From assembly GCA_008632985.1 (NCBI GenBank), contig QPGO01000028.1:553598-617597 (forward strand): a DNA stretch of 64,000 nucleotides, in the 5' to 3' direction. The notes under the pieces were generated by a model, which worked only from the letters and a program-made list of their open reading frames with translations, was not told where the DNA came from and did no database searches. Within the stretch, counting starts at the first letter, position 1, and each line of letters begins with the position of its first letter. Below, in pieces: positions 1 to 20,064 of the stretch. Origin of the DNA: Psammoneis japonica (taxonomy: Eukaryota). Position numbers and translations under genes: made by a program.

Positions 1-3000
1 TTTCCATCAGGCGCCGCCGCGTCGGCAGGAGCTAGCTTTGGAGAAACAAACTTTGGAGGAACACACAGTCCTCCCAGTGAGTTGAGACTTGTAGCATCGC
101 ATCAAAACCACGGAAAAGTTGTGCTTATGGAGTTCCCACTTTGGGGAGATCAAGACTTTGGTGCCATGGAACTTGGCAGTCCACTTCGATATGTGCTCTC
201 GGTTTCAGAAGACCAAAGAATATCATCAGCGATTGGGTGCTTCAAGCGAAACCTCGAACGACTTCCCGTGTGCATGGACCACGAGTCGAGTCGACTCTGT
301 GCACGCATTGAGACTGGCGCAAAATCCGTATCGCTGACTTGGAGAAGGCAGGGAAGCATGTATATTCTACCAGGTCCTCATCACTCAATTAATGTCGGGA
401 TTTCTATGGTGCATTCATTGGCATCGACCATCTCTGTCGACTCCAAGATGAGCCATCACACATTTGACTCTAATGAAAGGCACTCGAGAGGTCCGGAACC
501 GTATTCTGATATTAGCGTTGTTCCCGTTCCGCTCACTCTGCCAACGCTGAGACTGCCGCGGAATGAAAGTTGTAGTCACGATGAGACGATTGTTGCGTTA
601 ATGTGGTGGCCAGACGATAACTTTGGTGCTCCTCTTCAGCTTGCCGCAATTACTTCCCGTGGTACATTTATTTTGTATGAAATGCCTCCTCCTTGGAGCG
701 TGATTGAGCCTCCCATGCCGAGTTACGACCCTCTTGATCTTTCGACCGCGAGTAGTTTAGCTGGCGGGGACGGTACACCAACGTTTCTTGGAAGCCGAGA
801 CTCGAGTGACGAAGATAGTACCGCGGGGGTCGAACGGAAGGAGTACGAAACAATGATAACGCCACACGTAGATTTTGGAATCGGTTTGAGATTAGAGTCC
901 CAGGCGGAAGGAATGCCTGCAATCGCTGGATCATACAAAAAGAATCCCTGTATGTACTTTTGAATCGTTGACTGATCTTGAAATCTGGGTCATAATTCTT
1001 CTCACTATCCATCCATCACTTTTCGACCTTCCACAGTAACTGGCGGACGATTACCTGCTGAACGAACTGGCATGATAGTTCTTGGTGATGAGCTCGTAGC
1101 TATCAATGGTGTAAGCTTGGAAGGTCGTTCTTTCGATGACATAATAGGGACGGTCCGACGAGTTGGATCGGCAGTAAACCCGGGAGCACCGCTGTGCATG
1201 CGCTTTCGTCCCAATCTATCAAATAGACGCCGTATACATAGCGGCATTACATTCGACGGAGAGGGAAGCCCATCAAGTAAATCCTCTCGACAGAATGGAA
1301 GACGAACGATAGAACAAATATTGGGTGTATCGCCCTCACCAAAGCAACGAAAGAGAAAAGATACTAAAGGCAATGAGTCTGATTCTGATGATAGTCAATT
1401 TTCAGTGCTCGTCGGCGCAGAGAGTGAGATGCAACAAGAGTTCAGTCGAATTGTTGCAATGGTTCGAAATGCCTTGGATATTGGTAACGAAGAATTAAGT
1501 TCGGCGGAAGCACAGTCCCTGATTGAGTTGCTACCATGGCATGTATCCATCGGCACGCCGGATCTAGAGCATGTTCGCGGGGCCGCGTTGCTGGTCTCCG
1601 CCAGAAAGAGTACTCTTTGCACAAAACGCATTGAAGTTGCGGCAGATGGAGATCCTAATAGCGCTCAATGCGTTGACCTCGGTTCTGTTGACCTGCAAAT
1701 CTCGCCAGCTAGCATCCGCAGTCTTGTCGTTGTCAAACCTCGGATAGATGGGTGGTGTCTCGCCGTTTGTGACAGCAATGGAGCTGTCACCCTGGTGTTT
1801 GTTGAAATCGAAGTTGACGCGAAATCAAGCGACGGCAGCGGAAGAACGGCCGGAGCTTCACCCGCTAATCTGCGCGCCGTCTTTCGTTATCACCTTATCA
1901 TACAATGCAACACTTCGTCGAGACTCCTCTATCGAGCAGCATCTGTTGAATTGATGGCAACAATGCCTCAAGGGGAAGCATGTCGAACTCTAACGGTGTG
2001 GTCAGCTTGCCCTCAGGCTGTGGACGTAGACGAAAAAGAGAAGCATCACTCTGCTTACGTTCAGTCACATCTATCCTTGAACGAGGATGCTCTGTCAATT
2101 TCAAGCAATGAGATTGTTGACTTCCGTTTTGTACCTTCTGGCTCTCTGGATTCATTTCCATGGATAGTCTTATTATCACGAACTGCAGCTGTTGTACATC
2201 GTAGAAGTTGCGTGAGCCATTCATGGGAGCCAATCGCTGAAATGGCTTACTCTGGCTTGGCCAATTCTACCCATCAGCCCAATCTCGGGGCTAGAATGCC
2301 TCCTCTGGATAGAATCAAGCACGTGGTGGCATTTGGTGATAGAGTATTGAGTCCTTCTGACGCATTTCCGCATCTGGTTCCAGCTCTACGCGACGCTGTT
2401 TCTGCATGCGACGAACGGAAGAACGTAAGGTCAGATTGGCATCCTGACTCCATCTTGGCGTATGTGTGTACAGAAAGCGAGGGTGCAAAAAGAGGTCTTA
2501 GCCGTAGAGCGCGAGGAATATTCGAATGGCTGTCAAGTTGGATGAGTCAAGATGACCAGAACCACCCCACTTTGAATTTGCAGTTTCCTCTTGGAGTTAC
2601 ACCACTGTCATCGCTTAATGAAGACAGACCCCTGGAGGAAAATCAGGAACAAGCTGATAACGTTGAAAGCGCCGCTAACCTTATGGCGTCCTTTTCGCTG
2701 GCGCCATCTGTCAAACAAACAAAGCCATTAAGCGAAGAGCAGAAACTACTTCGTGAACTGCAGAAAGTGTTATGCCCCGCTCACGCCTCTTCCAAGCACG
2801 AGAACAATGACTCTATCGGCAAACGAAGCAAGGAATTCTTGATCGCAATGGGCCAGCTAACGCAGTCAACCGACGGTGAAGAATCCGGTGGCTTTGATCT
2901 CCCTCCACCGCTGAGGAAATTGAATCGAGACGAGCTACGTCTTCTTTGGGCAATCGGAGAAGTTTTGGCATCTCCTCCTAATTTCAAAGCGTTGGATGTA

Positions 3001-6000
3001 CCAGGGCAGCTTACTTTGTTCTGCACGTCGCTTTTGCGACACATTGATGCCGCTGCAGGTGACGAGGAAGTTTCAACCAACGACGCGTCGTTTGCTACCG
3101 GAAGTCGACCATTATTTTCAATCGGGCATTCCCACCAGCAATCAAGTAAAGTCAAACGAAACAACGCGATCCCGTCGGCCGGGATGTTATCCGCCCTTAT
3201 CAGCGATCATCAAGGTTTTCTCTTGGAACGATGCCGAAGTCCAAATGAAAAGATGGACTGGCCAACAGCCAGACAGTTGCGTTTACCATTTTGGATTCGT
3301 TCGGACTCGGAGCTTCGAAAGATTGCCGAAGAGATTGGTCAGCGCACCTACAAGGATACCAGGGATGTGATGAATGCTGCGCTATATTTTATTGCTGTTC
3401 GGAACATGCGAACGTTGAGAAACCTCGCTGCCACCGATCAGAGCACCAGTGGAAGGACGTTTCTAAAATTCATAACCAATCACGACTTTAGCAGTCAGCG
3501 AGGACGGAAAGCTGCGGAGAAGAATGCGTATAGTTTACTCCGCAAACGACGATACTCGGTAGCTGCTGCATTTTTCATATTGGCAGAACCACCAATGCTG
3601 AAAACGGCGCTGGAAGTAATCGTTAATCAGATGGAAGATTTGGATCTTGCATTCATGATTGCTCGGCTCGTCGAAAATGCCGTTTCTCCCTCACAATCTA
3701 ATGGTGTTCTAGGAGGATTGGCGTCCGGTGGCATAAATCTTCAGGGCATGGGTGGGGGCGGTGGCTTCGCTTCCGGAGGGGTCACACAATCTAGCTACGC
3801 GCAGTTTGCTGAACAGAAATACGTCGATTGGAAGCCAAAACTTGGAAAATGCGCTAGAAAACTGATAAAGGAACGAGGACTTGGCTTGGCCGAATTAGAC
3901 TCATGTTTGAAGGCAACCCAGCTTCTCTGGTTGGGTCGTGTCAATGAAGCCTCATCCTGTCTCGCGGAGCCAGTATACGCGTCTAAGAAGAACGATAGCC
4001 CCCTTCGCGATGCCGTTGTTCCACAGTTGGTTGATCATGACACGAATTCAACACAAGCCGCAGTGAAACAGTTAGTTGGTTCCGCGAATGCAAGAGTCTT
4101 AGAGAAAACAAGTTCGTTAATCAATTTCACGTCGTGCCCCATCATACTGAAGGCTATGCGAGCTCAGACCCGAGAGATATGGGCATCAGCCCTTCTTGTA
4201 TCGCGAGCTCTGGGTCGCCGTGGAATCGAAATTCCTTCTATGCAGCTCTTGCTTGACACCACAGATCCTACCGATCTTGACAATCGTGTGGACACCGAAG
4301 AGAAAATCGCGACGAAGGAGTTGAACGGCAAAGGAAACCAAGCAATTGCTCCTTCAACTTCGATTTTCGATGCGTTCGACGCTCCGAGACCTACGCAAGC
4401 GCCACCGATGGCCACCAGCGCAGCCAGCAGTGACCCAATGACTGCGTCGTCGTCGATCTTTGATACGTTTGACGCTCCACCACCAAAGAAGCCATCGAAG
4501 CCTGCGCAGGCAGCCTCGTCGTCGATCTTTGACACATTTGACGCTCCACCAAAGAAGCCAGCAAAACCTACACATATGCTGACAGCGACGAATGACGTCG
4601 TCAATAACGACCCAATGGCAGCCTCGTCGTCGATCTTTGATACATTTGACGTCCCCACAAAAAAGCCAGCTGCGACTGCCACCGTTTCAACGTCACAGGA
4701 TACAATGACTTCATCAATCTTCGATTCCTTTGATGCACCGCAGGCGAAATCGAAATCGGTTTCCGCACCGAAACAATCGCAGTCTACAGAAATGTCATCT
4801 TCGATCTTCGACTCCTTCGATGCTCCACCGGCACGGAAAGCGCCGACTCCACAACCAGATAAGCAGAAGTCGACGCCCACATTTGCGGAGTCTGCTTCTT
4901 CAGGAAACCCGGCTGCTTCAAGTGAAGACACGGATGACAACGAGGAAGATGCCGATACAGTCTCAATGCCCACGCCGCGGCTGTGGCTAGAATGGCGTGT
5001 CAGTATTATTGAAACATCAGTTGCTCGGCGATTTGTTCGCGAGGTGGCGCGAATCATTTCTCAATTCCATGGTGACGCTCAGGATGACTCCATGAAATTG
5101 TTTCGCCGCCACATCCACCCACTTGTGCCCCACAGCGCTGCCGAAGTTCTACGAACCCATTGTGACGGAGACGCCCTCCTCGGAAGTGTAAGACGTGCAC
5201 TCGATGAACTTTCTGAAATGTCCAGTTTGGGGCAACGATCGATTCTTGATAAGTCACTCGATTTGCTTGCGTGTCAATCTCAGCCAAAACGAATCATCTT
5301 TGCGGTACTCTTGTACGCGGTTATGGGTCGCTCTGACCTGGCCGAAGACGTTGTTAGAGATGTATCGCAGAATGTGATGCAAATGTGCGATGGCGCGGCC
5401 TTGTTGAATGACGACCTCGTGTACAATAGGAAAACTTTTGGGCACATGTCAAGTCAGTACCTTCGGCGGCAAGCCGCACGATTAAGTTGGCAATTGGAGT
5501 TATGCTTGTGGTTGCACCGGGGTGGCACATTCTCATTGTCTTCCACCACGGTGAAAGAAGCAGCTATTGCTGTTCGAATCGCGCTCTTCGTTGCTTCATG
5601 GGGGCGTAGTCATGAATGTATCGAGAAAATGATAAGGTGCGAGCTAGACATGATATCAGACTACGAAGCGGGCCGCCAACTTTGGAGCAGCATGAAGTTG
5701 ATATCATCACCGGAAGAAGACGCAAACAAGGCCAGTGGAGCTACAAGCGGAGGTTGGGAGTTCCTTGTCGACTGCAGTCGAGACGAAGCAACTGACATGC
5801 TCCGAAATAGGCCGCCTGGCAGTTTCATTATAAGACCCCATACGGAAGATCATGGTGTGTTTACTCTCAGTTTCAAGACAAACCTCACTCCAACAGTGGA
5901 AGGAGACGAACATTATACTGCCGACATTGATTCGAACAACCCTGCAGCTATAGGAGGGGAAGAGGCCCCTGGAGGTTTGCCAAAACCAGCGAATGCACGA

Positions 6001-8133
6001 CCGGTCAAGAAGGACGAAGTAGTTCAGCATGCAATTATTCGACTCTCCGATTCCGGTTTCAGGTGCGGCTCATTTGGTCCGTTTTCTTCTTTAATGAAAC
6101 TACTCGAAGCTGTTTCCGGATCGCTGCCCTTTGCGCTTCTGTTCAACGAGCCGCCAACCGAGAGGATCATTCAAGATCTGGGTGGAGGTCCTTCCCCCAA
6201 TTCTTTACTGTTTCGAAAACTTGCACTCGCGACTCACTCAGAATCGCTTCGTTGGAATGCTGCGACGCGCCAGTCCATTTCTTCTCCAACTGATGTCGAA
6301 ACTTCTGGCTCAGGCATTCCTGACGATGTTGATGATGATAAGCAAGACGAAGGTGACAAGGACGAATTCGCGACAATGAGGCGTTTTGGATTGTTTTCGC
6401 TGCTCCTGTCACTTTCAGAAATTCGCAAGAGCGTGTGCGCCGTTGCTGCCGCAGACTTGGATCCCGGCAGAAAAGACGACCAGCCGCACCCGGACGTAGC
6501 AGACATCCCGGTGCGTCCTTTCGACGAAGTGGAGTCTGTTGGTAGCATATCCGATGAATCGGATGATTTTGGCGTTGAGCAGCAATATGCTGATGCTTCG
6601 AGAATAGTGCGACCATTTCTGTCGTGGTGCCGCTTGCTGGAAATCGCAATTGCGTTAGAGCTTGCACCATCGTTGGACGACGTGACGCAAGCGACCGAGG
6701 CAAAGCCAGTCGCATTGACTGCATCAGATACGGCGATCGAGGTCGCACCTACTGATGTCGGAAGTTGCATAGACGGCGGTGATGCCGTGATCAGGCAATT
6801 GATTCAACCAGACTCTGGCGTTGAGTTCCGAACGTTGCGTGTTGGCGAAGGCGGGGATAGCGCTATGTTGGTACTTTTCAATAAGAAAGAGGCCGCTGAA
6901 TGGTTTGTGTCAAGAAATCTGGAGAAGAACGCTGATGATGCGTCGGCACGGTTAGAATTAATGGAGAAGCGACGAGTGATTGAGCAGGTCGATCTGGGTG
7001 AACTAGCCGCAGAGGATGAAGTGCGTTACCGGTTTGTAGATCCTTGGGAGGTTGAGGCGTTGGGTAGCAAGGAAGGCGAAACAATGGCGGCGGCGTTAGG
7101 ACGGGAGCGGTTCTATGAATTCAGTATCGCACGAATTGCCAGTTCCTGCGAGTTCATGCAGAGGTCTCTTGGAGGTCTACATCTTATGGGCTTATGGAGT
7201 GCAGCAAAAGGAGGGGTATGTCTGACGAAGGCAGTTGCTTCGGTTCACCCTCCCTGGGAACGTGATGCCGGCGGTGACCTGCAAATGGTTGGCGGAGTCT
7301 CTGCGGAACCTTCATCCTTTTCCAATAGTATCCGCGAGCATTTATACCGCAATGCTCTTTTTCGAAGACTGACGCTCCCCCAACGTTTCTTGGCTCTCGT
7401 GCAAGTGGAATTGCTTGATTTGAAGAATCTAACATCACCCGGTGGTTCCTCTTCTCTCACCGTGTATGCGCTGCTTCGTCTGAAACGGCCGGGATCGGGT
7501 GCTCCTCTAAGTCTCAAGGCCCGAACCTTGGACAGCTCATGCACTCCACCAACCAAAATCACAAAGACGTCTGGTCCAAACGCACCTGCTTCATGGGGTA
7601 GTTTGGTTCGTTTCAGGTTTCCTCTTCCAGAAGATGTGAATTTCGATGGTATCAGCTTTGATGGCGACAGAGAAGCTCTGTTCAAGGTGTGTATAGCGTC
7701 TCTGTTTTAAGTTGTGGTTTGACAGTGTATCGATCGTTGACCAGATTTCTTTCTCTTTTCAAACTTTCAGGGCCCGCCTTGCGCATTGCAAATTTCGGTT
7801 TACGAGAAGAAGTTCATGAAGGACATTCTCATCGGTGGCGCAGATGTCCAGCTGGACTCGCTCGCGGGTGGACGACAACTAGAAGAGTGGGTGCCATTGC
7901 GTGCAGAACGAGACGGTATCCATTGGTTTGCCCGCATTCGATTGACTCTTCGTTTTGAATTGATGTGCTTGGAAACACACGAAGAAACCACCGAGGAGTC
8001 ACCTCCCAGTGTTGGTTTGAGAAAGATTCAAGAACTCAGCAAACTCGGAGGGGCTCACGAGGATCCAAAGGGCGTCGCCAAGAGCGTGAGTACGCCTGAT
8101 CTTTTGAGTTACTTTGAAAGTATGGTCTACTAG
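1..8133 (+). CDS. RAV1: RAVE complex Rav1 / rabconnectin-3alpha (DMXL)-like protein with extra PDZ, SH2, DEP-like and C2 domains; 5' end lies outside the window
   Basis: Frame is open from base 1. GT-AG introns at 950-1036 and 7687-7770 join the three ORFs in frame (KNP-L-TGGR; LFK-GPPCALQISVY). Rav1p_C-type motifs: WPTARQLRLPFWIRS and DFSSQRGRKAAEKNAYSLLRKRRYSVAAAFFILA. PDZ-like: FGIGLRL...GDELVAING. SH2-like: SRDEATDMLRNRPPGSFIIRP...FTLSF...VQHAII. C2-like: VQVELLDLKNL...QISVYEKKFMKDILIGGADVQL. Confidence 0.8.
4354..4827 (+). repeat. Six copies of an (S/T)SIFD(S/T/A)FD(A/V)P peptide motif in a low-complexity linker of the Rav1-like protein
   Basis: Read directly from the translation of ORF 1072..7710. 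Confidence 0.9.
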
Positions 8134-8802: not shown

Positions 8803-11284
8803 ATGACCGACAGAAATGAAGCCCTACCGAAGTCTCCTCTGAGACACTACTTTTCTCAGCGATCTTCCATGCGAATCCGTACGAACGACTTACCTCTGGA
8901 GCCAAATGCCCACGGTTTCTATTCGCCTGCTGGATTCTTTTTTATATTTATTGGTCTGACGGTACCCTTTGCATATATCTACATTTTGTTAATTTTGTTT
9001 CGAGAGCTGTGCATCAACTTTCCCGAGACGTTTTACCAACCTCTTCAGAATTACATCCCATGGCTCGCCAATGTGGTTAGTACCATGCAACAGAGCTCTA
9101 TTTTTGTGGAGGCATGGTGTGTCATTGAGGCTATTTTCTATGTCTATCTGAAACTGAGACTCTCGTGGTTGCAGCATCAGGATGTTTTAGAAGCGAGTTT
9201 GCGTAGTGCTCCCATGCTCGAGTTGGACGAACGGCAAGAATTGTGGGATCGAATGATGGAAACCGAACAAAAGGAGCCAGGGGCTTTTATCTCGGGATGG
9301 TTCTTTGACGAACCCATTGAAGCAATTTCTCTCCACGATGTAAGGGACTTTTGCGCTTGGAGTATGTTTGAGGGTAGAAATCTGGAACACTTGACCAGTG
9401 AGGAGTCGGAGCAATTAGATCGCTTTGTGGAAGACTACGAATACAAAATCAGTGTTCACCTGTACGGATTAGAAGAAAAGAATGAGGAAGAACAGAAAGA
9501 GAACGGCATCATCGATTCGAAATATGAAATGGAGGGACATGTTTTGGCAAAAAGACCGAAAACTACTGATGTAGGTGAATCGACGACAGTCATAGATGGT
9601 CGACCGCCTCCAAAGCAATGTAAGTCATTATGCGCGAACGCGTGATTTTTGCTATTGTCTTCTAAGCGTTGAGCCTTTTTCTAATTCGAATCCTCTGTTT
9701 TGCTTTTCGGGCCTTACAGATTTCCGCTTTCATGAGACAAGTCATGATGAGCACACGAGTTTCTTTACCAACATGTACGAGGACTTTAAACATCGTTACG
9801 AACAATACAAAAATAGGCTAGAGAATTCAGAGTTTCACCCTGTTCAGGACTTGAGAAATTTCATGGCGGGAACCCGACAACATATTGTCGATGCGGAAGA
9901 AAGCGCCGTTGCGACCGCCACAAACATGGCTGAAACCGCAAGCAACATGGCTGAAAATGCCTACCACACGATTGTTGCTCCCGGGTCCGCTGTAGACAAG
10001 CAGCTTTCTGCGATTGGACATGCCACTCATGTACAATTGACAGAAGCTTGGAATTCAGTAAAGGATATGCGAGAACGTATGGAAACCGCCGAATTCCTGT
10101 CGTCTCAACGAAACGCAATTCGACAACGACTCAAAGGCTACCAGCTCTTGTTGAAGCAAATGCGACAAATGTCATCTGCCATGCCGTCTAAGCAAATGGC
10201 CGTTATCATGAGGAAGATCACAGAGTGCAACGAGAACATGGAGCGATTGGAAGTTTCGGCACGGGATGCTTTTTTTAATGCTACTGGATTTGCCCGAAAG
10301 AATCTCTGGCAGCGACGAGAACCACAAAGATACGCCAAGTACTCGTCTGATCCATTGCTGGGGATTTGCACGTATCCTCTGGGCTTTCATTTGTTGATTC
10401 TAGCCTTTACCGAAGGTGGACTGAGATTCATGATGAATCGACGAGGCTTTGTTCGGTTGAGCGAGGGTCCCGTGAATTACTACTACCATCCCGGAAAACC
10501 GTCTCTCGGCAATCGCGAGGAAGCAACGGACAAGACTCCGGTTGTGTTTGTACACGGCATTGGGATTGGATTGATTTATTACATTCCGCTCATTGACCGT
10601 TTGCTGGAGACTGGACAGCCGGTTTTTCTGCCCGAGATTCCTTACGTGACTGGCTTTCGTCCATGGCAAAGCCCGAATTCTGTACTTCCACCTGCTGTTG
10701 TAGTCAGCACATTGACTGGAATGCTTGCCACTCACGGATTCCTTCGTGGCCTCTTCGCGGGTCACTCTTATGGAACGTCTTGGTTGAGCTACATGTGCAA
10801 GTATGCCCCGGATGCTGTGGCAGGAGTTGTATTTTTGGATCCCATTTGTTTTTGCCTTCACATTCCCCGATTAACCAAGAAGTTTGTATACCACCGTGCG
10901 GATCCTGGGGTCATTAGTTACATGATTCGAACAGACATGATTATCAACTGCACAATCCAGCGAAGCTTTCCGTGGGCTCGTATTGTTTTGTTTTCCGAAC
11001 AAATCAAAGCTCCGTGCTGTGTGTTTTTGAGTGCTCAAGACGAATTGTGTCCTGCTCTCAAGGTGGAAGAGTACCTTGGTAGCAAGGGTGCACCCGTCAA
11101 GGACAGCGTTGATGCTGATCCGGATCATTTTGCAACTGATCTGAATGTAACCGTCTTTCGAGGCATGGGTCACGGCGACTGGTCCGAGCGAGCACCGGAT
11201 GTGTCTTTAGTTGCAGACTGCGTTAATGTCATGTGCAACCGCCTCGAAGTCAACGCTATAACAGAAAAAAATAGAGAAACGTGA
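8803..11284 (+). CDS. Membrane-anchored alpha/beta-fold hydrolase, two exons
   Basis: Intron 9620-9719 (gtaagt...ttacag) joins ORFs 8803.. and 9596.. in frame. Motifs PVVFVHGIGIG, nucleophile elbow GHSYG, FLDPICF and a C-terminal GHG. Hydrophobic N-terminal segments. Confidence 0.85.
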
Positions 11285-11440: not shown

Positions 11441-12277
11441 TCAAAAGAGAACTTGTGCAGGTCCGCGCAATCTGAACACATCAGCCATTCCACAGTGTGT
11501 AACATGCTTCTTGGCTTCAACATAAACCCCAAGCTTTTCTACCCCATTTGAGTCTCGCAACTTCACAGCACCAGCACCCATGGCGGGATCTGGATGGACC
11601 TTGCAATGGCATGTCTGCAATCCATGCTTCTGGTTGAAAACCCCAACTTTGACCCCAATCTGTTGCAAGAACCTGGGGTCAACGACCGGGAGGAACACAA
11701 GCTTGTCGGTAGGAGGCAAAACTGTTCCGCGTCCATGGTGATGGCTGTGGTGCACTGCACCAGCACAAGGAAAGTTCTGTGTCAAATTAAATGCTGCAAC
11801 ACCGTGGCAGGTGCCATCATTGTGCTTGACAAATGAAAGGGTGCCGCTGTTGCCAGGCTCACCATGGTTGAGGCAGAACCCCACCAAAAGCCATCAGAGC
11901 ATCCGTTGGGGTGATCATTGATGATTGAGCCATTGCAGCTTGAAACGGCACCAAAGAGACCACGTCCAACAAGTTGAGATTGTTGGCTCTCTTCTTGCGT
12001 CTGTGGTGATCAGGGGCTTGCATTCTGGAATTCTGCCATTGGCGGCGTCAATCACAATGATGTTTTTTGATGCAGGGAGTGGATTTTTAAAGTCTCGATG
12101 ACATGGGTTGACCAAGTGCACCCACCCCAAGAACACCCAATTGGCGAATCAATTCCAGCAGTTTGACAAAGACATGAGGTTTGTCTGTTGGTGAATTTGT
12201 TGACATCACCGACAGAGCACACAATGAGCAGCACCAACGATGGTGTTCTTTGCTCCACCAAAATGGTTGAACCACAG
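11441..12277 (-). pseudogene. Decayed, TpA-depleted coding remnant interrupted by the copia element (it appears to continue at about 19335-19750); weak resemblance to a trypsin-like protease GxSG motif
   Basis: Protein-like frame containing GEPGNSGTLSFV...GVAAF. TpA is nearly absent. Identity is uncertain. Confidence 0.3.
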
Positions 12278-12553
12278 TGACAGAAATTGAAGGCAAATGG
12301 CAAGAATTCAAACAACAACTCCTTGCTGCTGTCTAAATGGCAGATGAGTCTCCGCTCAGAGACCGTTGCAGGAGCCGAAAGACGTGCAAGTCGGCATGAT
12401 CGGGCTGCTGTTGTCATTCTTGTGAGCCTTGTGGCTCGAAAGCAAACTACATCGTGCGCAAACGCGCGGAACTAAAGCACACAAAACTGTGCGCGGCAAA
12501 CTAAACAGTGCGCGACATTTCGCGCGCACCCAAATCCTGTTCAAATCCTGTCA
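12278..12553 (-). repeat. 3' LTR of the copia element
   Basis: Direct repeat of 19059-19334 with TG...CA ends. Confidence 0.95.
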
Positions 12554-12559
12554 CTCCCC

Positions 12560-15500
12560 AGTTTGCTTGAGGAGTCACAGAAACAGATTCGACTTCGGAT
12601 GGAATGAAGTTCCAGAACATGAGGGGGCAGAGAAGGTCCCAGATTTGGGAGTGACCCCAATGCTTGCTGAGAATGTCAGCAGGGTTGCGGGAGCCTTCGA
12701 TGAAGTGGAACTCAAGGTGACCAGAGGCGATTGCCTCACGCACACAGTGGAACAACAGTGCGGTGTGTCGCTTGTGTAACTTGGAGTGCGGGATGGTGGC
12801 ACTGTCTACAACTGACTTGTTGTCACCGAACATGTGACTGACATTACGGATCGGGACGCCAAGGTGGCGCAGGGTGATGCGCAGGTCGATGATCTGCTCG
12901 ACACAAGTCCTTGCGGCAACAAATTCAGACCCACAGGTCGCAGTCTCCACGGTGGCTTGCTTCTTAGAGAACCAATCAGCCGGGAATTTGTTGAGGAAGT
13001 GGAGCATTCCCATGACAGAGCGTCCGGTGAGCATGCAATGGTGCAAGTTTGCATCAACGCAGGGGGTGGCAGTGACAAAACTTGCCAAGGGGCAGTGGAG
13101 CATCCTTCGGGATCATCTCTTCTGCTTCGCCGCACACGGAATGCATCCATTCGTGGGCCGGAGCAGGGAGATCCAAACAGTCGGGCTCTTCCGTGCGAAC
13201 GCGGAGAGCGCCGTGTCGCATCTTGGAGAGGCACCCACAGACGCGTTTGGCACGATCCAAGTGGCCTTGACGGGGCGCAGCTCGGAAGCTAGAGAGTGAC
13301 ATGACGGCCGTGGCAATGTCAATTCGACCAAGAGACACTGCCCATTGGAGTGAACCAACAAGGGACTGGAACTTGTGAATGCCATCGGGCTCCAGCAGTT
13401 CGGAAGTGTCCAGTTCGGGGTGGTCACCCTTCTCCAGAGGTGACAGGGCATTGGTGGCAGGTTTCTCCCCAAACAGTCGGGTGCAGCTGTCGACCATGCG
13501 CTCAATGTACTTGCACGGAGACAGGCTCAAGGCACCGTCGGGATCCCGGAAAAAGTCACAACCCAGATGGAACTCAATGGGTCCCGCACCCTTGAGCTTG
13601 AACTTGCACTTTTCCGTGAGAGTGTCGACGAAAGATTGAGGGTCCTTCACAGCAATGGCGAGGTCATCCACATAAACGGCAATGCATTCACAGTGGTCGC
13701 CATTCCTGCGCATCCAAATGTCGGGTTCGGCGCGGCAGGGGAAGAAGCCTTCAGCTCGCAGGCAGTCGGCAAAGCGCTCGTGCCAGCGGAGACCGGAGCT
13801 GCGCAGTCCATGCAGGGCCTTGTGGAAGACAAGGATGTGTCCTTCGAGTTTGCCAAATTCGGGTCCGGCTGCAATGTGGAGCTTCTCCTCAGTGGTGGCT
13901 TCAAGACAGGCATTGCCAATGTCGGTGGCCCATGTCTCCAACTCGTTGAGTTCGGCCAGGAAAATCATCAGCCGAAGGCCACGGAGGGAGACTGCTCCGG
14001 AGTGGACACTGTCGACAGGCACGTCTGTGAGGTGCCCATCAGCTACGAGTCGTGCCTTGTGGCGACCGTCGTGTTTCACGTCGTACACCAGGTGCACTCG
14101 GATCTTCTTGTGTCCGCAGGAGGAGTGGAAGACTCGAAGGGCCCGCAGTCATGGAAGACTTCGTATTCCTCGAGTTGGTCCATCTCGAGATTAGTTGCGT
14201 CTCCCCATTTGCGGTCACCGTTGCGCTCATCTAGTGACATGGCGTGTTCGCAGTTCCGGGGAACTTCGCATCCGCACTTGTGGCGAGGTGCAGTGCGGAA
14301 GGAGCGAAGCTTGGCTTGGTTGGCCATGCGAAATAGCTTCTTTTGGCACCTCGCGATGGTGCGGAACCGCTTCCAGCCATCCGTGTCGAGGAGTCCATTC
14401 TCTCGTGCATAGATGGCGCAGGTGACGGGGTCGTCCTTGGCGATGATGGCAAGAGGCTCGGACATTGTCTCCCCACTTTCCCATTCGAGCATGATGTTGT
14501 AGCTTGAGCCTTTCCAGGTTGGGTCATGAGGCTTCAGAGGTCCTTCGTGTGACACGGTGCGTCGGAATTTCCAAACAGCAGTGTCTTCGTCTTCTTGCTC
14601 AATGTGATTCATGATGTTGTTGCAGGCAAGGACTTCCTCGCATTCGTCATTGTTGACAGAGCAGACGAACTCAGCAAGCTCGGGATTGCCGTTCACTTTC
14701 CATTCATGGTCTTGACGGCCTTGACGATGCGAGCTCTGTGGCGTTGTCCGTCCTCTTGTGGCTGCATGAGGAAGGCACATCCGATGATGTCTTGCGGATT
14801 GAAAACTGGCATCTTGGGTGTCCTGATCTCCCCATCAGGAGAATCGACGGGGTTGTCGTCATGGCGAGATTTGATGATGGGTTCAGGTGGCTCCCCATCA
14901 GGAGGATCAAGACGCAGGTTTCAAACGGCAGGATCGGTGGTGGCGGAGCGTACGTTGGACCGGTGGAGGATCTTCTGAGTCTCGTCAGAGAGAATCTTGA
15001 AGGTCATCTGGTGGCCAACGTGCTCAGCAATGCCAACGAAGCGTCCACGCAACTCACGGGATTCGGACAGCCAATCGGAGTCATCGAGGTGGAAGCACAC
15101 GGGTTCCCACCAGTGAAAGCAAAGCAATGGGCTGATGTCCGGGGTGGAGCCAGTGAGAGTCTCGAGGGGCGTGCGCCAGTGGAGACGTGGGGACGCTGCA
15201 TGGTTGAGCATGAAGCACACATGCATGAGTGCCAGCAGCCATGTGTGGGCGGGCGAACCAAAACGATCCATGACAGTGTTTGCCATGCGCTTCACGGTCT
15301 GGTGTCGACGCTCAGCAAAGTTTTGGTGTTGCTGGTGAGGCTCACTTTGCCAGCTGGAGATGAAGTGGGCTCGCAGGATCCCGAGCACTTTGTTGCTGAT
15401 CTCAACTTGAGCACGGTCGCTAATGAGTTTGGATGGGGCACCACGCTCATGGATCTGATCCTCGAGTGTGTTGACAAACTCTTTGTCCATCTTGGTGCCG

Positions 15501-18117
15501 CAGACGTCAGTGATGGTAGACTCGGTGCCAACAAACAGTTGGGCGCTGGTGCAACCAGAGTCGATGGCGGGGGTGTCGGCACAAACGGTGTCAGTGGCGA
15601 CAGGCTCGTTGCGGCGGTGCACATTAAGGGCGGGGTTGGATGATTTGCAGGCCTTCCTAAGGTGTGTGCCGGCGGGCATGCGGGCGCACTGCGTGGTGCA
15701 GTCAAAAGTGCGACGGACCGCATCGGCAGGTGGGAAGCCAAAGTGGGGCCGAAGAGACTCGAAGGGGGGGTCCTTGGGCTGTGCAGTGCGCTCCGGGGGC
15801 GGAACGTCGTCGTCCTTGTGGTCAATCGCGTGCAGATGACACTCGTAGAACACGTCGTTGTTCGGAATGAGGTGATCATCGAGGGCGGACGCGTGATCGG
15901 CAGACAAGGAAGCGGACATGATGGTCTCGTTGACAATGACACGATGACGGCAGTTGCCGCATTCGTCAAACAGGTTGGCAGTGGGATCGTCCTGTGGGTC
16001 AGAGATCGCGTCGCACCACTGGTCGTCGTCAGTGACAGAGTGATCGAGGATGGAAGGATCCCATGTGTCATCACCGGTGAGGATGACATGGGGCAGGGTG
16101 TCCCATTCGGCGTCAGTGCAAGGTCGCATGGCAACACAAGGCAAGCCGGCCTTGATGTCAATGGGGATGACACAGCCATCAGGAGTGGCAATGTGTTGCA
16201 AGCCGTTGGGCACCTTGACAGAGCAATCGTTGACATCCTGTTTGCACCATTCGAGCTGGCTGCAGGAATGGATTGTCTTGCCCTTGCCCGTGCATGCGTG
16301 CTGATGGAGGATGGCGATGACGGGACCACGCTGGGTCTCAATGACGGCACCAGCGGTGACAACAGGGGTGTCCACCAATTGATGGTCGTCAATGCCCTGA
16401 ACGTCGACTTGGCCCCACGATCGACCAGAGCACCAGTGCGTGTGGAGCAATGAGCAGAGGCAGAGCAAATGACATTGTGGTCATCAACGTGATGGCAAGT
16501 GCGGCCGTTAAGTTCCATGTCATCGGCAGAAGCTGGCGGGGTAGAGGGAGCGGCGGATGGCCCCAATCGACTGGCATTGGGGGCTTGGTTAGGAGACAAC
16601 AGACGTTGCAGATCACCGGGTGGCAGTGGCTTGCGCTTGGTGAGGTGCGCCAGGATGGGATTGTCTGAAGTGGCACCCACATTTGGAGCGGAGTCACCAG
16701 AGTCAGCAGGAGTCGTGTTGGACAAGTTGACATCACCGTCACTCCCAAGGCGTTGGTCGTGAGGGTTGGCCGTAACGGACTCATGGCAGTTGCTGTCTTG
16801 CGGGTTACGGGGAGGCGGACGAGAATGTTCAAGGATGATTGCCTTGGAGGAATGGGGCAACGAATCCCAAATCCGTTGGTGGTCGGGAGGGAGACGTTTC
16901 CATTGGTCACCGGTGAGGCTGGGACCACGGGTGTGGGCAGCATTGGCCTGAAGGACGTCAATGTCACTGTCAATGTCGCAGAACACATCGTTGGACGGTT
17001 CCTCGGAGCAGACGTCGTGTGCGCACATGGTGCGTCGGGGAGCTCGAGGTGTCGTCTTGGGTTGAAACGCACTGTCGTGTTGAGCTGCCGCGGAGAGGAG
17101 CAAGCCACAGTGTTGATCGCATGTGAGGCTCTTGCCACTCTGCGTACGATGCTGATCAGCTTGGTTCTTGACAGCACGGAGTTCCTCGACAGGGTGTGCG
17201 GCATTCTCGAGCATGACGCACTTCTGTCCTTCAGAGAAGTGGTCACTGGCCGGGATGAGTGCCTCGCACTTGCGCAACTGATGTTGCCAATGTAGGATGA
17301 ACCCGTGGGTTGGACCTTTCCAAGTGCCATCACCAAGACGTGCGGTGGCAAGGTACGTTGGCAAGGTGGAGGACTCGACAGATGCGCGGGTGGAGGCGAG
17401 CGCATGCTCAGACAAGGCGCGGTAGACGGTCTGGGCGTCAGAAGACCCCACATTTTCGCGGATGAGAGCCTTGCCCTTGTCGGTGAGAAGGATGCGTTCA
17501 AAGACGGCGAACATGTGCTTTTGCTGTTCAGCAAAGAGCAGTTTGTCTTCGGGGCTGGTCGGTTTGTACGACGAGTCTAGAATGCACTTGACGTCTTGGG
17601 CACGGGCTTGTGCCACAAGTGAGGTGTGCCAAGTGTGCCACTGCTTGTCGGATTTGAGAGCTGTGAAAGCGGTGGGATCACGCTTGATGCCTCGCTTGAA
17701 GTCCCGCACTGGGTCGCGTGCCTTGGTCGGGTTGGTGACATGCGGAGGTGCGAGGGGTGAGCTGCAGATGGACACAGAAGACATGCAGTCAGGGCTGAGG
17801 CGGCAGGCAAGGAACTCGTCATGCGTGAACAATGAGGAGTCATTGGCAACGTCAAGACCTTTGTGTGCTTTGACAATGTGCAGACCAACTGGAGCTGCTA
17901 ACATGTTCTTATAACCACGGGGCAAAGGGATCACATCAGTGCCGTTGTCGCACTCAAGCGAGTCGATTTGGGACGGTGTGAACGTGAACAGTTCTTGATG
18001 CGAGTCCGTGCTGTCTTGGGCCAAAGCCAAACGAAGAGGGCTCCCAGGACCTTGGGCAAGCACGGTTCCAACAACATGCTCGAAACCATCGGTTTGTTGC
18101 TGACGAGTGAGAACCAT
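12560..18117 (-). pseudogene. Copia gag-pol, frameshifted and with pervasive Tyr>Cys/His substitutions
   Basis: Fragments lie in ORFs 15292..18147, 14921..16468, 14076..14780, 13054..14097 and 12501..13103. DIGNACLEA, KALHGLRSSG and ETATCGSEF occur where copia proteins have Tyr. Confidence 0.93.
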
Positions 18118-19058
18118 GGTAGACAAAAGTGGTGTCAGGACAAGCAATTCTTGTTGGGAAGCGAAGGCAGACTTGAAGCTTGGGTGAGAACAGACTTGAC
18201 TTGAAACAGACTTGACTTGAAATCTTGAACTGCCTTAAAATCAGAAGTCGCCGGGCTTTGCTGTCCCGTTTGTTGTCAAGTGCTAAACTTCCCATCCGGT
18301 CCGTAGAGTTGTGCTGCCGGCACATCCGAACCCGCAGCCAGTGGCGCTTTGGGTTGCTTGCGAGCGGAGCAGCGGGTTGCAAACCCCTGCAGGCAAGCTG
18401 ACTGGAGGTGGACAAGACCCCCGAACCGTTCTCATTTTGTGTCGGTTGGATTTCCTGATCAGGCTGGCCAGTTGACGCAGGCGTTGGGCGCTGTGGACGA
18501 ACGAACAAACGCGGGAAAGCACCCTCGCCCCAACGCAGGCTGCAATCACGGCTGCTTGCTCTCACAGTCGTCCTCGTGGACCTGGCAGAACTGTGGAGCA
18601 CCAGCAGTCTGGGGCAGATCAGGCACAATGGACTCGGTGTGCTTGCAGAGTGGTGGCAAAACCGCAGTCTGAAGAGTGGGTGCAGGTTCTTGGCCGTGAA
18701 GACATGTGTGTGCACGCATGTCTTCAGCGACGAAGATCCTTGAATGTGTGGGGTTCTTGACCGTCAACCGATGAATGGGTGCATCAAGGGATGACGATCA
18801 AGGACAGACTTGGACATGACCGTTGAATGCATGTCTTCAGCAATCAAAGGCAGTGCAATCAATCCAGATGTCCAGCGGTAAGGAGACTTGACGGTGATTT
18901 AACTTCCTGCCGATGCCCTGGCATTGAATGCGCGCAGACTTGCCAATGTGTGTAGAACACACACGGAGGTCCACGCAAAATTGAAATGGCGTCGTTGGTA
19001 AATCAACGACGACGATGGCGGTTGCTCAATGGGTTGACAATGTGCAAGACTGTCAATC

Positions 19059-19334
19059 TGACAGAAATTGAAGGCAAATGGCAAGAATTCAAACAACAAC
19101 TCCTTGCTGCTGTCTAAATGGCAGATGAGTCTCCGCTCAGAGACTGTCACAGGAGCCGAAAGACGTGCAAGTCGGCACAATCGGGCCACTGTCATCATTC
19201 TTGTGAGCCTTGTGGCTTGAAAGCAAACTGCATCACGTGCGAACGCGCGGAACCAAAGCACACAAAACTGTGCGCGGCAAACTAAACAGTGCGCGACATT
19301 TCGCGCGCACCCAAATCCTGCTCAAATCCTGTCA
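19059..19334 (-). repeat. 5' LTR of the copia element
   Basis: Direct repeat of 12278-12553. Confidence 0.95.
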
Positions 19335-20064
19335 CACAACAATGTGCATGTTGCTTGTTTGTTGGGGTCAGCACAGTCAAACTGTGGTTGTCAGCACCAA
19401 TCATGGGAATTTCATAAATTCCATTGCAGAGGATCAGCAGCAAGCTTGAAGCTGCAGATCCTTTGCGGCCACTTCAAGTCGGTTGACGGACCCTTCGATT
19501 CGCTTGAGAGACTCAACCATCCATTGTTCAAACCATGTCAATGGCTTGTTGTGTGGACTTGTCAGTGTGCTCATTGCTGCAGCCAGCTACAGAGAAAGAT
19601 GGCAGACCAGAGAGTGACAGCATGGAAATTTGAGTTTTGAGGTTGCTTCAGAAAAGTGCGTTCTGCAAGAGATTGCAGTCTCAATCAAGCTGAGTGCGAT
19701 TCCATGCTGTTTGCAGAGAGCGCTCCGGAGTGTCGCGTGTTGATGGAGTTGCCTTGCAGACTATATTTTGCAACGTCGAGGCGATGACTATTCTAGAGCT
19801 AGAGCGTGATAAACCCAAAACGTTGGTGACAACACGGAACACTGCCGTTTTTGACTGAAGCTTTCCGCGAACTTGGGCCCGCCCAACGTGGGTCGAAAGA
19901 GTCGTATGATTCGTCGCCCCTTTCGTTTCACGGCGGGGTTCGCATCGGAAGATTAATGATGTACAAGAATATGAATACTTTTCAATGATCCCGACGCCGA
20001 AATCAATCGCATCGATGCGTCCGACGCTGTCACAACGAAGAAGAGCACAACAGCAACAAACACC

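What the first reader, a model, noticed from the sequence alone, without database searches (positions are those of the whole stretch)
12278..19334. The two LTRs diverged almost only at TA/CG sites, with reciprocal TG-versus-CA pairs
Established: LTRs are identical at insertion. Seen: about 17 differences in 276 bp by hand count, all transitions, and all but one at TA, CG, TG or CA sites. They include actac/actgc, actaaa/accaaa and four adjacent double differences TG versus CA (gttgca/gtcaca, catgat/cacaat, gctgct/gccact, gttgtc/gtcatc). Inference: one palindromic dinucleotide was hit on opposite strands in each LTR after integration, so the process acts on chromosomal DNA rather than on RNA or cDNA. 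LTR-divergence dating would overestimate ages in this genome.
Basis: partly seen in the sequence, partly recalled or inferred. Interest (0 to 1): 0.75.

Follow-up and report, generated by a model that had tools for sequence, protein, structure and literature searches.

The report
TA-erasing mutation recorded in LTR pair
The two end-repeats of a dead copia-type jumping gene differ almost only where TA or CG steps were rewritten to TG or CA after it inserted, which records a rarely described TA-specific DNA mutation process and makes the element look about eight times older than it is.

Summary
The two 276-bp LTRs (12278-12553, 19059-19334) differ at 17 sites, all transitions, and 16 of them interconvert TA or CG with TG or CA. 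Four are adjacent TG-versus-CA pairs.

The element is a full-length, frameshifted Ty1/copia on the minus strand. I polarised its coding changes against 59 relatives. Tyr codons conserved in at least 80% of them are now TGN or CAN at 27 of 33 sites. CGN Arg codons are hit at only 4 of 48. None of 79 metagenomic relatives shows this Tyr loss.

With these rates, about 4.05 opposite-strand double hits are expected from ancestral TA in an LTR pair, against 0.07 from CG. Family contigs read A at 12398 in most of the depth, which supports a TA ancestor for one pair directly. The reciprocal pairs are therefore most likely TA sites hit independently in each LTR. The six CG-versus-TG/CA differences are ordinary CpG decay.

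LTR dating is inflated about 8-fold.

The signature matches the one reported in a 2026 preprint on Bigelowiella natans. Earlier notes of this scan reported it on other DNA of this same genome. The enzyme is unknown.

The parts
12273..12277 (.). Left target-site duplication candidate, CACAG
   Evidence: Read directly. It matches 4 of 5 bases of CACAA at 19335-19339. The mismatch is a G/A transition.
12278..12553 (-). LTR (3' LTR in the element's own orientation), 276 bp, TG...CA ends. It keeps 4 TA and 19 CG.
12554..19058 (-). Internal gag-pol region of a Ty1/copia element. It is colinear with residues 1-1848 of a 1859-aa relative (P0005) in 5 pieces with frames -2, -1, -3, -2, -3, which means 4 frameshifts. 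There is 1 in-frame stop in 1754 aligned codons. TA O/E is 0.14 and CG O/E is 0.83.
13054..14148 (-). Reverse transcriptase open frame (Pfam RVT_2, E = 2.8e-25)
19059..19334 (-). LTR (5' LTR in the element's own orientation), 276 bp. It keeps 2 TA and 17 CG.
19335..19339 (.). Right target-site duplication candidate, CACAA
12367..12368 (.). Reciprocal pair 1: TG here, CA at 19148-19149
   Evidence: TA origin is inferred.
12397..12398 (.). Reciprocal pair 2: TG here, CA at 19178-19179. Family contigs read A at 12398 (74% of depth in X1, all depth in X2-X4), and no T>C row for 12397 is among the 40 rows shown.
12406..12407 (.). Reciprocal pair 3: TG here, CA at 19187-19188
   Evidence: TA origin is inferred.
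12412..12413 (.). Reciprocal pair 4: TG here, CA at 19193-19194
   Evidence: TA origin is inferred.
12453..12460 (.). 8-bp block reading CGTGCGCA here and CACGTGCG at 19234-19241. Family loose ends read CGCGCG, so this looks like two CpG hits in each LTR.
   Evidence: and the loose ends (X3 at 12446 and 12469).
12449..12449 (.). TA kept here, TG at 19230. This is an unambiguous TA hit in the right LTR. The family loose end also reads TA.
12473..12473 (.). TA kept here, CA at 19254. This is an unambiguous TA hit in the right LTR.
12364..12364 (.). CG here, TG at 19145. There is a second CG/TG difference at 12437/19218.
12540..12540 (.). The only difference outside the TA/CG classes (T here, C at 19321)
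11545..12277 (.). Left flank, TA-poor (3 TA in 733 bp, O/E 0.07) and CG-poor (O/E 0.41). It is at single-copy depth at 11900-12223. Probably an older mutated tract into which the element inserted.
19335..19760 (.). Right flank, TA-poor (2 TA in 426 bp, O/E 0.07), CG O/E 0.45. Normal TA density resumes at 19762.

Best explanation
A full-length Ty1/copia retrotransposon inserted here, minus strand, with identical 276-bp LTRs. Afterwards the chromosomal copy was hit by two transition processes, each directed at one dinucleotide.

(1) A fast process converts TpA to TpG or CpA (A:T to G:C), on either strand. It has converted about four fifths of the element's TA sites.

(2) A roughly ten-fold slower CpG to TpG/CpA decay, of the kind expected from deamination of methylated cytosine in silenced transposons.

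The four reciprocal TG/CA pairs are, most probably all or nearly all, ancestral TA sites. Each was hit independently in both LTRs: A to G on the plus strand in the left LTR, and T to C on the plus strand in the right LTR. The six CG-versus-TG/CA differences are CpG decay.

Shown here: the direction of change, the dinucleotide specificity, that both strands are hit, the rate contrast, the restriction to transposon-derived tracts, and the post-integration timing of the LTR differences.

Inferred: the chemistry. I think enzymatic deamination of adenine in a 5'-TA-3' context is the most likely, acting on DNA marked as repeat or silent chromatin, as the preprint proposes for Bigelowiella natans. 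A modified thymine at TpA that mispairs with G gives the same double-strand outcome and is not excluded.
For: **Anatomy**
- RVT_2 hit on the minus strand.
- Colinear with residues 1-1848 of P0005.
- TG...CA LTRs and a 4-of-5 TSD.

**Direction and rates**
- At columns where at least 80% of 59 full-length relatives have Tyr (37 columns), the element has TA 6, TG 19, CA 8, other 4. That is 27 of 33 hit.
- At the 52 conserved Arg columns it has CGN 44, TGN 3, CAN 1, AGR 2, other 2. That is 4 of 48 hit.
- At the 27 hit Tyr columns the nearest relative has Y at 25. The 59 relatives have Y in 1513 of 1593 cells, and Cys is not among the eight commonest residues listed.
- No Tyr became Arg (0 of 37), so a TA is not hit on both strands.
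- Conserved His (26 of 29 kept), Gln (19 of 20), Trp (22 of 24) and Cys (5 of 6) did not become Tyr or stop. This excludes RIP-type C to T at CpA.
- All single-step non-synonymous changes at columns conserved at 80% or more: TA>TG 25, TA>CA 11, CG>TG 8, CG>CA 6, other transitions 8, transversions 25, multi-step 19, ambiguous 1 (103 in all).

**Control**
- In 79 metagenomic relatives, no locus has more than 3 TG+CA at conserved Tyr columns, while the window element scored 28 there (6 still TA; this call maps columns through P0006, so it gives 28 of 34 where the mapping gives 27 of 33). Their TA O/E is 0.35-1.15 against 0.14 here.

**LTR logic**
- With internal rates, 4.05 opposite-strand double hits are expected from TA and 0.07 from CG. 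P(TA origin) per pair is 0.98, or 0.85 with LTR-only rates.
- The CG-only reading needs TA 2/8 versus 27/33 (P = 0.004) and CG 14/50 versus 4/48 (P = 0.018). The TA reading fits (P = 0.17 and 0.51).

**Family contigs**
- 12398 G>A: 74820 of 101547 depth, 54 contigs in X1, and all depth in X2-X4. No 12397 row is shown.
- Loose ends give TA at 12448-9.
- At 14216-7 this copy has CA and the family TG, while the relatives conserve Asn there, so the ancestor had A, not G. This is an internal example of a reciprocal pair from TA.

**Action on chromosomal DNA**
- TA-poor tracts (36280 of 64000 bases by my tract rule) include a MULE transposase relic, a gypsy RNase H, and a pseudocopy of a gene. In that pair TA goes from 15 to 0 and CG from 14 to 1.
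- Genes keep TA O/E of about 0.5-0.6.

**Precedent**
- Mettrop et al. 2026 preprint: I read the abstract, passages, section 11 and the Discussion.
- CG methylation of diatom transposons: passages of PMC9998398.
Against: - Only one of the four pairs has direct outgroup support, and that rests partly on a row not being shown. One search printed 40 of 153 difference rows, and the expected CpG rows for 12455 and 12460 are not shown either. Absence from that table is therefore weak evidence.
- A divergent subfamily read as a loose end at 12383 (9 contigs, agreement 0.75) appears to carry TG at three of the pair sites. I aligned it by eye only.
- The LTR TA-hit rate under the TA reading (10 of 16) is lower than the internal rate (27 of 33), though not significantly.
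- CpG hits in the LTR cluster in one block (4 of 6), so local CpG hot spots exist. With pessimistic rates (p = 0.5, q = 0.2), P(TA) per pair falls to 0.60.
- The family is extremely repeated (5282 contig pieces laid in X1). A chimeric assembly or recombinant element cannot be excluded except by the 4-of-5 TSD.
- The flanks are more CG-depleted than the element, so they do not prove spreading from the element.
- No whole genome is held, so I could not look for a candidate enzyme, methylation data or genome-wide LTR pairs.
- That the host is a diatom comes from earlier notes only. Two Atlas look-ups did not resolve the taxon.
Confidence: 0.8

Rival explanations
1. All four TG/CA pairs, like the six CG-versus-TG/CA differences, come from ancestral CpG. 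Methylated cytosine was deaminated on the top strand in one LTR and on the bottom strand in the other. On this view the TA differences are a minor side effect.
For: The LTR is CG-rich, with 19 and 17 CG left. Six differences are unambiguous CpG decay, and one 8-bp CG block was hit twice in each LTR. Transposons of diatoms are CG-methylated (passages of PMC9998398). Three of the four pairs have no direct outgroup evidence.
Against: This reading needs 14 CpG hits in 50 site-copies, against 4 of 48 in the coding region (P = 0.018). It needs only 2 TA hits in 8, against 27 of 33 (P = 0.004). The expected number of CG-derived opposite-strand double hits is 0.07-0.44. Position 12398 reads A in most family depth. 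Under this reading the strand of the hits would run against the local CpG trend at both ends. Near the left LTR (12455-12813) unambiguous CpG hits give CA on the plus strand at 4 of 6, and in the right LTR they give TG at 3 of 4.
Confidence: 0.07
2. The two LTRs were never identical in this locus. The element would be a recombinant or gene-conversion product of two differently mutated copies, or an assembly chimera of a very abundant family. The differences would then be inherited polymorphisms and would say nothing about timing at this site.
For: The family is hugely repeated and polymorphic at exactly these kinds of site. At 14003-4 the family depth splits among TA, TG and CA states. No laid contig spans an LTR together with both its neighbours (table 8).
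Against: The flanking 5-bp duplication matches at 4 of 5, which by my own arithmetic has a chance of about 1.6%. The first 86 bp and last 80 bp of the LTRs are identical apart from one site. The mutational signature and its direction hold regardless of this rival.
Confidence: 0.06
3. The changes arose before integration, by editing of the element's RNA (ADAR-like, UA preference) or of its single-stranded cDNA, and not on chromosomal DNA.
For: A to G on the sense strand is the commoner direction in the coding region, 25 against 11 (P = 0.029). RNA editing followed by reverse transcription would give that bias.
Against: RNA editing cannot make the two LTRs of one insertion differ. Both strands are hit: 11 of 36 coding hits are on the other strand, and the two LTRs are hit in opposite directions. 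A DNA-transposon relic (MULE) and a pseudogene copy, which have no cDNA stage, lie in the same kind of tract.
Confidence: 0.04

Closest known systems
TpA-restricted A:T to G:C hypermutation of integrated giant-virus and virophage DNA in Bigelowiella natans (Mettrop et al., bioRxiv 10.64898/2026.01.13.699255; abstract, passages, section 11 and Discussion read)
   Same: Both show the same signature: TpA to TpG or CpA depending on the strand, almost no other change, confined to foreign or repeat DNA, and long-term TA depletion with TG+CA enrichment in clusters.
   Different: The host is a different lineage (a diatom according to earlier notes; not tested here). The targets here are LTR retrotransposons, a DNA-transposon relic and a pseudogene copy, not viral integrations. 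Conversion is near saturation here (TA O/E 0.14 and below, against 0.45 for their NCLDV region). It is accompanied here by CpG decay. I also see a flanking-base effect: surviving TA is enriched in TTAA and absent in ATAT. The word 'diatom' does not occur in that text. Their evidence is experimental (mutation-accumulation lines); mine is comparative.
Repeat-induced point mutation (RIP) of Neurospora and other ascomycetes (features recalled; also mentioned in the preprint's Discussion)
   Same: Both are dinucleotide-directed transition hypermutation of repeated or foreign DNA in the chromosome. Both hit either strand and inactivate transposons.
   Different: The chemistry and outcome are opposite. 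RIP changes C:G to T:A, mostly at CpA, which creates TpA and stop codons. Here TpA is destroyed, GC rises, only 1 stop is seen in 1754 aligned codons, and conserved His, Gln, Trp and Cys are not converted.
CpG decay of methylated transposons (5-methylcytosine deamination; CG methylation of diatom transposons by DNMT5a, passages of PMC9998398)
   Same: It explains the six CG-versus-TG/CA LTR differences, the 14 CG>TG/CA coding changes, and the progressive CG loss in older tracts (CG O/E 0.14-0.6).
   Different: It cannot explain Tyr to Cys/His at 27 of 33 conserved Tyr codons, nor the TA loss. Per site it is about ten times slower here than the TA process.
APOBEC3 and ADAR editing of retroelements (recalled; discussed in the preprint)
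   Same: These are deaminase-driven hypermutation of retroelement sequences with neighbour-base preferences. ADAR favours a 5' U.
   Different: They act on cDNA or RNA and on one strand, and they leave the two LTRs of an insertion identical. Here both strands are hit, the LTRs differ, and elements without any RNA stage are hit as well.

Membership tests
Ty1/copia LTR retrotransposon | Copia-type reverse transcriptase (Pfam RVT_2) | tested here: met
   RVT_2 E = 2.8e-25 on the open frame 13054-14148, minus strand.
Ty1/copia LTR retrotransposon | Direct long terminal repeats with TG...CA ends, flanked by a short target-site duplication | tested here: met
   276-bp LTRs begin with TG and end with CA. 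The 5-bp flanks are CACAG and CACAA, a 4-of-5 match.
Ty1/copia LTR retrotransposon | Single gag-pol polyprotein with integrase upstream of reverse transcriptase | tested here: inconclusive
   The element is colinear with a 1859-aa relative over residues 1-1848. RVT_2 lies at residues 1338-1554 of that relative, near the C-terminal end as in copia. Pfam reported no integrase or protease family for the relative or for the element.
TpA-specific A:T to G:C hypermutation (Bigelowiella natans type) | Changes are A to G or T to C at TpA, giving TpG or CpA | tested here: met
   27 of 33 conserved Tyr codons are now TGN or CAN. There are 36 TA>TG/CA among 103 classified coding changes. Two LTR differences are unambiguous TA hits.
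TpA-specific A:T to G:C hypermutation (Bigelowiella natans type) | [quoted passage not shown] | tested here: met
   Tracts have TA O/E 0.08, TG 1.61 and CA 1.69, against 0.58, 1.15 and 1.11 outside. Tracts hold copia, gypsy and MULE relics and a pseudogene copy, and genes lie outside them.
TpA-specific A:T to G:C hypermutation (Bigelowiella natans type) | Elevated de novo mutation rate seen in propagated lines | not testable with these tools
   This needs mutation-accumulation lines or duplex sequencing of this organism.
TpA-specific A:T to G:C hypermutation (Bigelowiella natans type) | Same enzyme or pathway as in B. natans | not testable with these tools
   The enzyme is unknown in both organisms. 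No whole genome is held for this window.
Fungal RIP | C:G to T:A transitions (CpA to TpA) that raise TpA and create stop codons | tested here: not met
   TA is depleted (O/E 0.14). Conserved His is kept at 26 of 29, Gln at 19 of 20 and Trp at 22 of 24. There is 1 stop in 1754 aligned codons.
CpG decay of methylated DNA | CG to TG or CA with the CG state ancestral | tested here: met
   4 of 48 CGN Arg codons are hit. There are 14 CG>TG/CA coding changes. Ten displayed rows where this copy has CA have the family at CG in 82-100% of depth. The LTR block reads CGCGCG in the family.
CpG decay of methylated DNA | Cytosine methylation present on the element | not testable with these tools
   No bisulfite or nanopore data were examined.

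The most novel reading that the evidence does not exclude
TpA in this organism's silent chromatin may carry a symmetric, maintained base modification on the T or on the A of both strands. This would be a second DNA mark beside CpG methylation, and the TA-to-TG/CA hypermutation would be its mutational decay. That would explain three things: both palindromic pyrimidine-purine steps (TpA and CpG) are erased in the same tracts; hits fall on either strand site by site; and flanking bases modulate survival (TTAA spared, ATAT erased).
Probability: 0.15. Interest if true: 0.9.

Novelty: new member of a known kind. Interest (0 to 1): 0.7.

Why it matters
A mutation process that rewrites TA to TG or CA in resident transposons is documented in print only by one 2026 preprint on an unrelated alga, as far as four full-text searches show. 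A second, distant lineage would suggest a widespread genome-defence or chromatin-linked DNA editor.

This LTR pair gives site-by-site evidence that the process acts after integration and on both strands. It runs about ten times faster per site than CpG decay.

Practical consequences:
- LTR-divergence dating in this genome is inflated about 8-fold here: 17 of 276 against 1 of 132 at other sites.
- Hypermutated elements lose Tyr codons and stop codons. They therefore show long spurious open frames in all six frames (44 frames of 80 aa or more over the element) and weak domain hits (only RVT_2).
- A natural TA-specific A-to-G activity on DNA would interest people who build base editors.

Tried and rejected
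**Whole genome.** None is held.

**Other copies in the window.** blastn of the element against the window finds only itself.

**Direct polarisation of the LTR sites**
- Scans for a degenerate 26-base LTR motif found 0 stretches in metagenome contigs and 0 in viral contigs.
- A search with the 140-aa frame that runs through the right LTR found no protein at E of 0.001 or better (69 candidates).
- An earlier-findings look-up by sequence and one by words each returned nothing.
- The single read-laying run printed only 40 of 153 difference rows. Seven of the eight pair positions remain unseen.

**Spreading into host DNA.** The flanks are TA-poor, but they are more CG-depleted than the element (O/E 0.41-0.45 against 0.83). 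I read them as an older tract and dropped them as evidence for spreading.

**Strand tracts.** A runs test on 36 coding TA hits is not significant (13 runs, P = 0.14). With the LTR sites added under the TA reading, P = 0.033, but that is partly circular. I do not claim processive tracts.

**Common strand for TA and CpG hits.** The two agree at the element's ends but disagree at 12.9-15.1 kb. I rejected this as a rule.

**Host taxon.** Two Atlas look-ups on host genes gave only generic eukaryotic clusters.

**RIP and RNA/cDNA editing.** Both rejected; see rivals and membership test.

**Literature on LTR dating and CpG.** A search found 3 papers. I saw the listing only and read none.


Full report
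**1. The observation**

The repeat finder gives a single direct-repeat pair at 12278-12569 and 19059-19350. Alignment and trimming to the TG...CA ends give two gap-free 276-bp LTRs, 12278-12553 and 19059-19334.

They differ at exactly 17 columns, all transitions:
- Eight differences form four adjacent pairs. In each, the left LTR has TG and the right LTR has CA (12367-8, 12397-8, 12406-7, 12412-3).
- Two are TA in the left LTR against TG (12449) or CA (12473) in the right.
- Six are CG against TG or CA. Four of these lie in one 8-bp block, 12453-12460.
- One (12540) is outside these classes.

Only 142 of 274 possible single transitions on this LTR interconvert TA/CG with TG/CA, so 16 or more of 17 has P = 2.4e-4. 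Five or more adjacent difference pairs among 17 random sites has P = 0.0015.

**2. What the element is**

The open frame 13054-14148 on the minus strand hits Pfam RVT_2 with E = 2.8e-25. The other 10 frames tested gave nothing.

A database search returned 2033 relatives. The best by identity is P0005, 1859 aa, 74% identical over the RT frame. tblastn of P0005 covers its residues 1-1848 in five pieces on frames -2, -1, -3, -2, -3. The copy is therefore full-length with four frameshifts.

The flanking pentamers are CACAG and CACAA. blastn finds no second copy in the window.

The family is very abundant in the organism. 5282 contig pieces of run X1 lay on 2.4 kb of it. Summed depth is 5e4-7e5 inside the element against 57-80 in the unique flank. 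The tool warns that this depth is not a copy number.

**3. Composition**

Per-kb profiles show TA O/E of 0.07-0.19 across the element, with CG at 0.72-0.94 and TG and CA at 1.1-1.8. The neighbouring genes have TA 0.5-0.7 and CG about 1.

Other tracts (about 23.2-29.4, 31.9-42.4, 46.6-52.5 and 55.6-60.3 kb) have TA O/E near 0 and CG O/E of 0.1-0.7. By my tract rule, 36280 of 64000 bases are TA-poor.

I scanned 40 of the 46 long frames outside the element. Three of the six left out had been scanned, and three are antisense frames inside a gene. The tracts hold a gypsy-type RNase H (33483-34943) and a MULE transposase relic (37346-38008). Genes lie outside the tracts: Rav1 (982-7707), a hydrolase (9596-11284) and a Tudor protein (44067-45857).

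**4. Direction of change, from an outgroup**

I aligned 59 full-length relatives (1780-1990 aa, of the 120 listed) and mapped 1754 codons of the element onto the alignment.

- Tyr. Where at least 80% of relatives have Tyr (37 columns), the element has TA 6, TG 19, CA 8 and other 4. That is 27 of 33 TA codons converted.
- Arg. At the 52 conserved Arg columns it has CGN 44, TGN 3, CAN 1, AGR 2 and other 2. That is 4 of 48 CG codons converted.
- Stability across thresholds. The proportions are the same at thresholds of 70% and 90%: Tyr 34 of 42 and 21 of 26; Arg 5 of 55 and 3 of 38.
- Outgroup check. At the 27 converted Tyr columns, the nearest relative has Y at 25. The 59 relatives have Y in 1513 of 1593 cells.
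- No double hit. No Tyr became Arg.
- Not RIP. Conserved His, Gln, Trp and Cys were not converted to Tyr or stop.

The direction is therefore TA to TG/CA, not the RIP direction. A TA is hit on only one strand.

All 103 differences at columns conserved at 80% or more classify as: TA>TG 25, TA>CA 11, CG>TG 8, CG>CA 6, other transitions 8, transversions 25, multi-step 19, ambiguous 1. The transversions and multi-step cases are ordinary family divergence and include alignment noise near the frameshifts.

**5. Control with relatives from elsewhere**

79 loci of related copia elements from metagenomes were fetched with P0006 as query. Their TA O/E is 0.35-1.15. At the same conserved Tyr columns, none has more than 3 TG+CA codons, while the window element has 28 with 6 TA left (maps columns through P0006, so its tally of 28 of 34 differs by one from the 27 of 33 of section 4). 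Several loci show CpG decay only, for example L013 with 8 of 34 and L072 with 11 of 35 CG-type Arg codons hit.

Caveat: the loci were found with peptide words that contain Tyr and Trp, so heavily mutated copies would have been missed.

**6. Origin of the reciprocal pairs**

*Likelihood.* With internal rates (p = 27/33 for TA, q = 4/48 for CG), the four unambiguous TA sites imply about 12 ancestral TA sites per LTR. That predicts 4.05 opposite-strand double hits, and 4 are observed. The 21 CG sites predict 0.07. P(TA origin) per pair is 0.98. With LTR-only rates it is 0.85, and with deliberately pessimistic rates 0.60.

The CG-only reading requires LTR rates unlike the internal ones: TA 2/8 against 27/33 (P = 0.004) and CG 14/50 against 4/48 (P = 0.018). 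The TA reading fits, with P = 0.17 and 0.51.

*Direct evidence.* Family contigs read A at 12398 in 74820 of 101547 depth (54 contigs) in X1 and in all depth of X2-X4. No T>C row for 12397 appears among the 40 rows shown. If those contigs carried CA, the 12397 row would have had the same support and would have been shown. Most of them therefore carry TA.

The table hides 113 rows, and the expected rows for 12455 and 12460 are also absent. I draw nothing from the absence of rows for the other three pairs.

Loose ends confirm TA at 12448-9 and CGCGCG in the block.

An internal analogue exists at 14216-7. This copy has CA, and all family depth there has TG. The relatives conserve Asn at that codon, so the ancestor had A, not G.

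*Evidence against.* A divergent subfamily seen as a loose end at 12383 seems, by my eye alignment, to have TG at three pair sites. It may itself be mutated.

**7. Timing and substrate**

RNA editing cannot make the LTRs of one insertion differ. Editing of one cDNA strand would give one direction only.

- In the coding region, 25 hits are A to G on the sense strand and 11 are on the other strand (P = 0.029).
- The left LTR is hit 4 of 4 as plus-strand A to G. The right LTR is hit 5 of 6 as plus-strand T to C (TA reading).
- The nearest polarised internal hits share the direction of the adjacent LTR: 12653, 12719, 12836 and 12866 on the left, and the site 19053 on the right, read from loose ends.
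- A DNA-transposon relic lies in a tract with TA O/E of 0.05-0.08.
- A gene at 60714-61040 (TA 15, CG 14) has a pseudocopy at 49159-49489 with TA 0 and CG 1. It shows 11 TA>TG/CA and 10 CG>TG/CA changes, and none in the opposite direction.

I conclude that the process acts on chromosomal DNA.

The element's own flanks (11545-12277 and 19335-19760) are TA-poor but more CG-depleted than the element. They look like an older tract and do not show spreading.

**8. How it probably works**

*Shown:*
- A:T to G:C at TpA, on either strand, never both strands at one site.
- About 80% conversion in an element whose CpG sites are only about 8-14% converted.
- Confinement to transposon-derived tracts with edges within a few hundred bases of genes.
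- A flanking-base effect. Of 183 TA left in tracts against 1099 outside, TTAA is 3.9-fold over-represented and GTAA and CTAA 1.8-fold. ATAC is at 0.14 and ATAT at 0 of 63 expected-scale (chi-square P = 8.5e-20). Three of the four TA left in the left LTR are CTAA.

*Inferred:*
- An enzyme recognising TpA in DNA marked as silent or repeated. Adenine deamination to hypoxanthine, read as G, is the simplest chemistry. It is the hypothesis of the B. natans preprint, which names an ADAT2-like candidate.
- A modified thymine that mispairs with G would give the same result. This idea rests on my recall of thymine-modifying TET/JBP enzymes and comes from no call.
- The slower CG loss fits deamination of 5-methylcytosine. 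Transposons are the main targets of CG methylation in diatoms (passages of PMC9998398).

**9. Consequence for dating**

There is 1 difference in 132 sites where a transition is not of the TA/CG type, against 17 in 276 overall. That is an 8-fold inflation, with a wide interval: the Poisson 95% range for one event is 0.03-5.6.

**10. Known or new**

Full-text searches gave these results:
- 'TpA, hypermutation, Bigelowiella': 1 paper.
- 'diatom, TpA, transposable elements, TpG', at least 3 of 4 terms: 165 papers, 15 listed, none on this process in diatoms.
- 'diatom, retrotransposon, hypermutation': 6 papers, none relevant by title or abstract.
- 'TpA depletion, transposable': 2 papers.

Only the Mettrop et al. 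preprint describes the signature.

Earlier notes of this scan report the same signature on other pieces of this genome, including other LTR pairs. Those notes are unchecked. They gave me the TA lead and the preprint, and I then tested both here. My first reading had been CpG decay at 60%.

I file this as a new member of the kind described in that preprint, in a different host and on transposons. Whether it is the same enzyme system cannot be tested here.

Noticed in passing
window 12746-17583 (minus-strand element): The strand of the 14 protein-polarised CpG hits switches with position. C to T on the element's sense strand occurs at 12746-15069 (8 sites). G to A on the sense strand occurs at 14495-17583 (6 sites). 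Mann-Whitney P = 0.0027. Family rows on the left side agree: 10 CG>CA against 5 CG>TG on the plus strand. A fork-direction switch or another strand-asymmetric exposure near 15 kb could explain it. It remains unexplained.
   Followed up: partly
whole window, TA-poor tracts: Surviving TA dinucleotides depend strongly on flanking bases. TTAA is 3.9-fold enriched, and GTAA and CTAA 1.8-fold. ATAC is at 0.14 and ATAT at 0 (183 TA in tracts against 1099 outside, chi-square P = 8.5e-20). This may reflect the mutator's sequence preference. Tract edges were set by my own rule.
   Followed up: partly
window 49159-49489 versus 60714-61040, and 46468-46858 versus 60300-60681: A gene with a weak Polyketide_cyc2/START-like hit (frame 60393-61046, E = 2.9e-5, below Pfam's cut-off) has two diverged partial copies inside TA-poor tracts. 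The first copy lost all 15 TA and 13 of 14 CG. The second kept 6 of 13 TA.
   Followed up: partly
window 37346-38008 and 33483-34943: A MULE transposase relic (E = 4.1e-7) and a gypsy-type RNase H (E = 3.4e-20) lie inside TA-poor tracts. DNA transposons and a second retroelement class are therefore affected too.
   Followed up: no
window 14216-14217: This copy reads CA where all laid family depth (26 contigs in X1) reads TG. The relatives conserve Asn at that codon. This suggests that a synonymous TA>CA change is fixed in the main family lineage, while this copy was hit on the other strand.
   Followed up: partly
window 12497 and 12509 (both LTRs identical there): Both LTRs have CA at 12497, where 54% of family depth has TA. 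Both have TG at 12509, where 99% has CG. Some TA and CG hits therefore predate this insertion or occurred in parallel in both LTRs.
   Followed up: no
loci L002, L005, L013, L026, L072, L075, L078 (metagenomic relatives): Several environmental copia relatives show strong CpG depletion (CG O/E 0.20-0.64) or Arg CGN to TGN/CAN changes without Tyr loss. CpG decay alone is common among relatives, and the TA process is not seen in this biased sample.
   Followed up: partly
window 42807-43106 and 43233-43532: A 300-nt tandem-like direct repeat at 97% identity, 426 bases apart, in a region of normal TA content. Not examined.
   Followed up: no
window 6052-6498 and 44776-45083: My tract rule flags two short TA-poor patches inside otherwise normal genes (Rav1 and the Tudor-domain gene). 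They may be compositional noise.
   Followed up: no
window 60029: A single N in the window.
   Followed up: no
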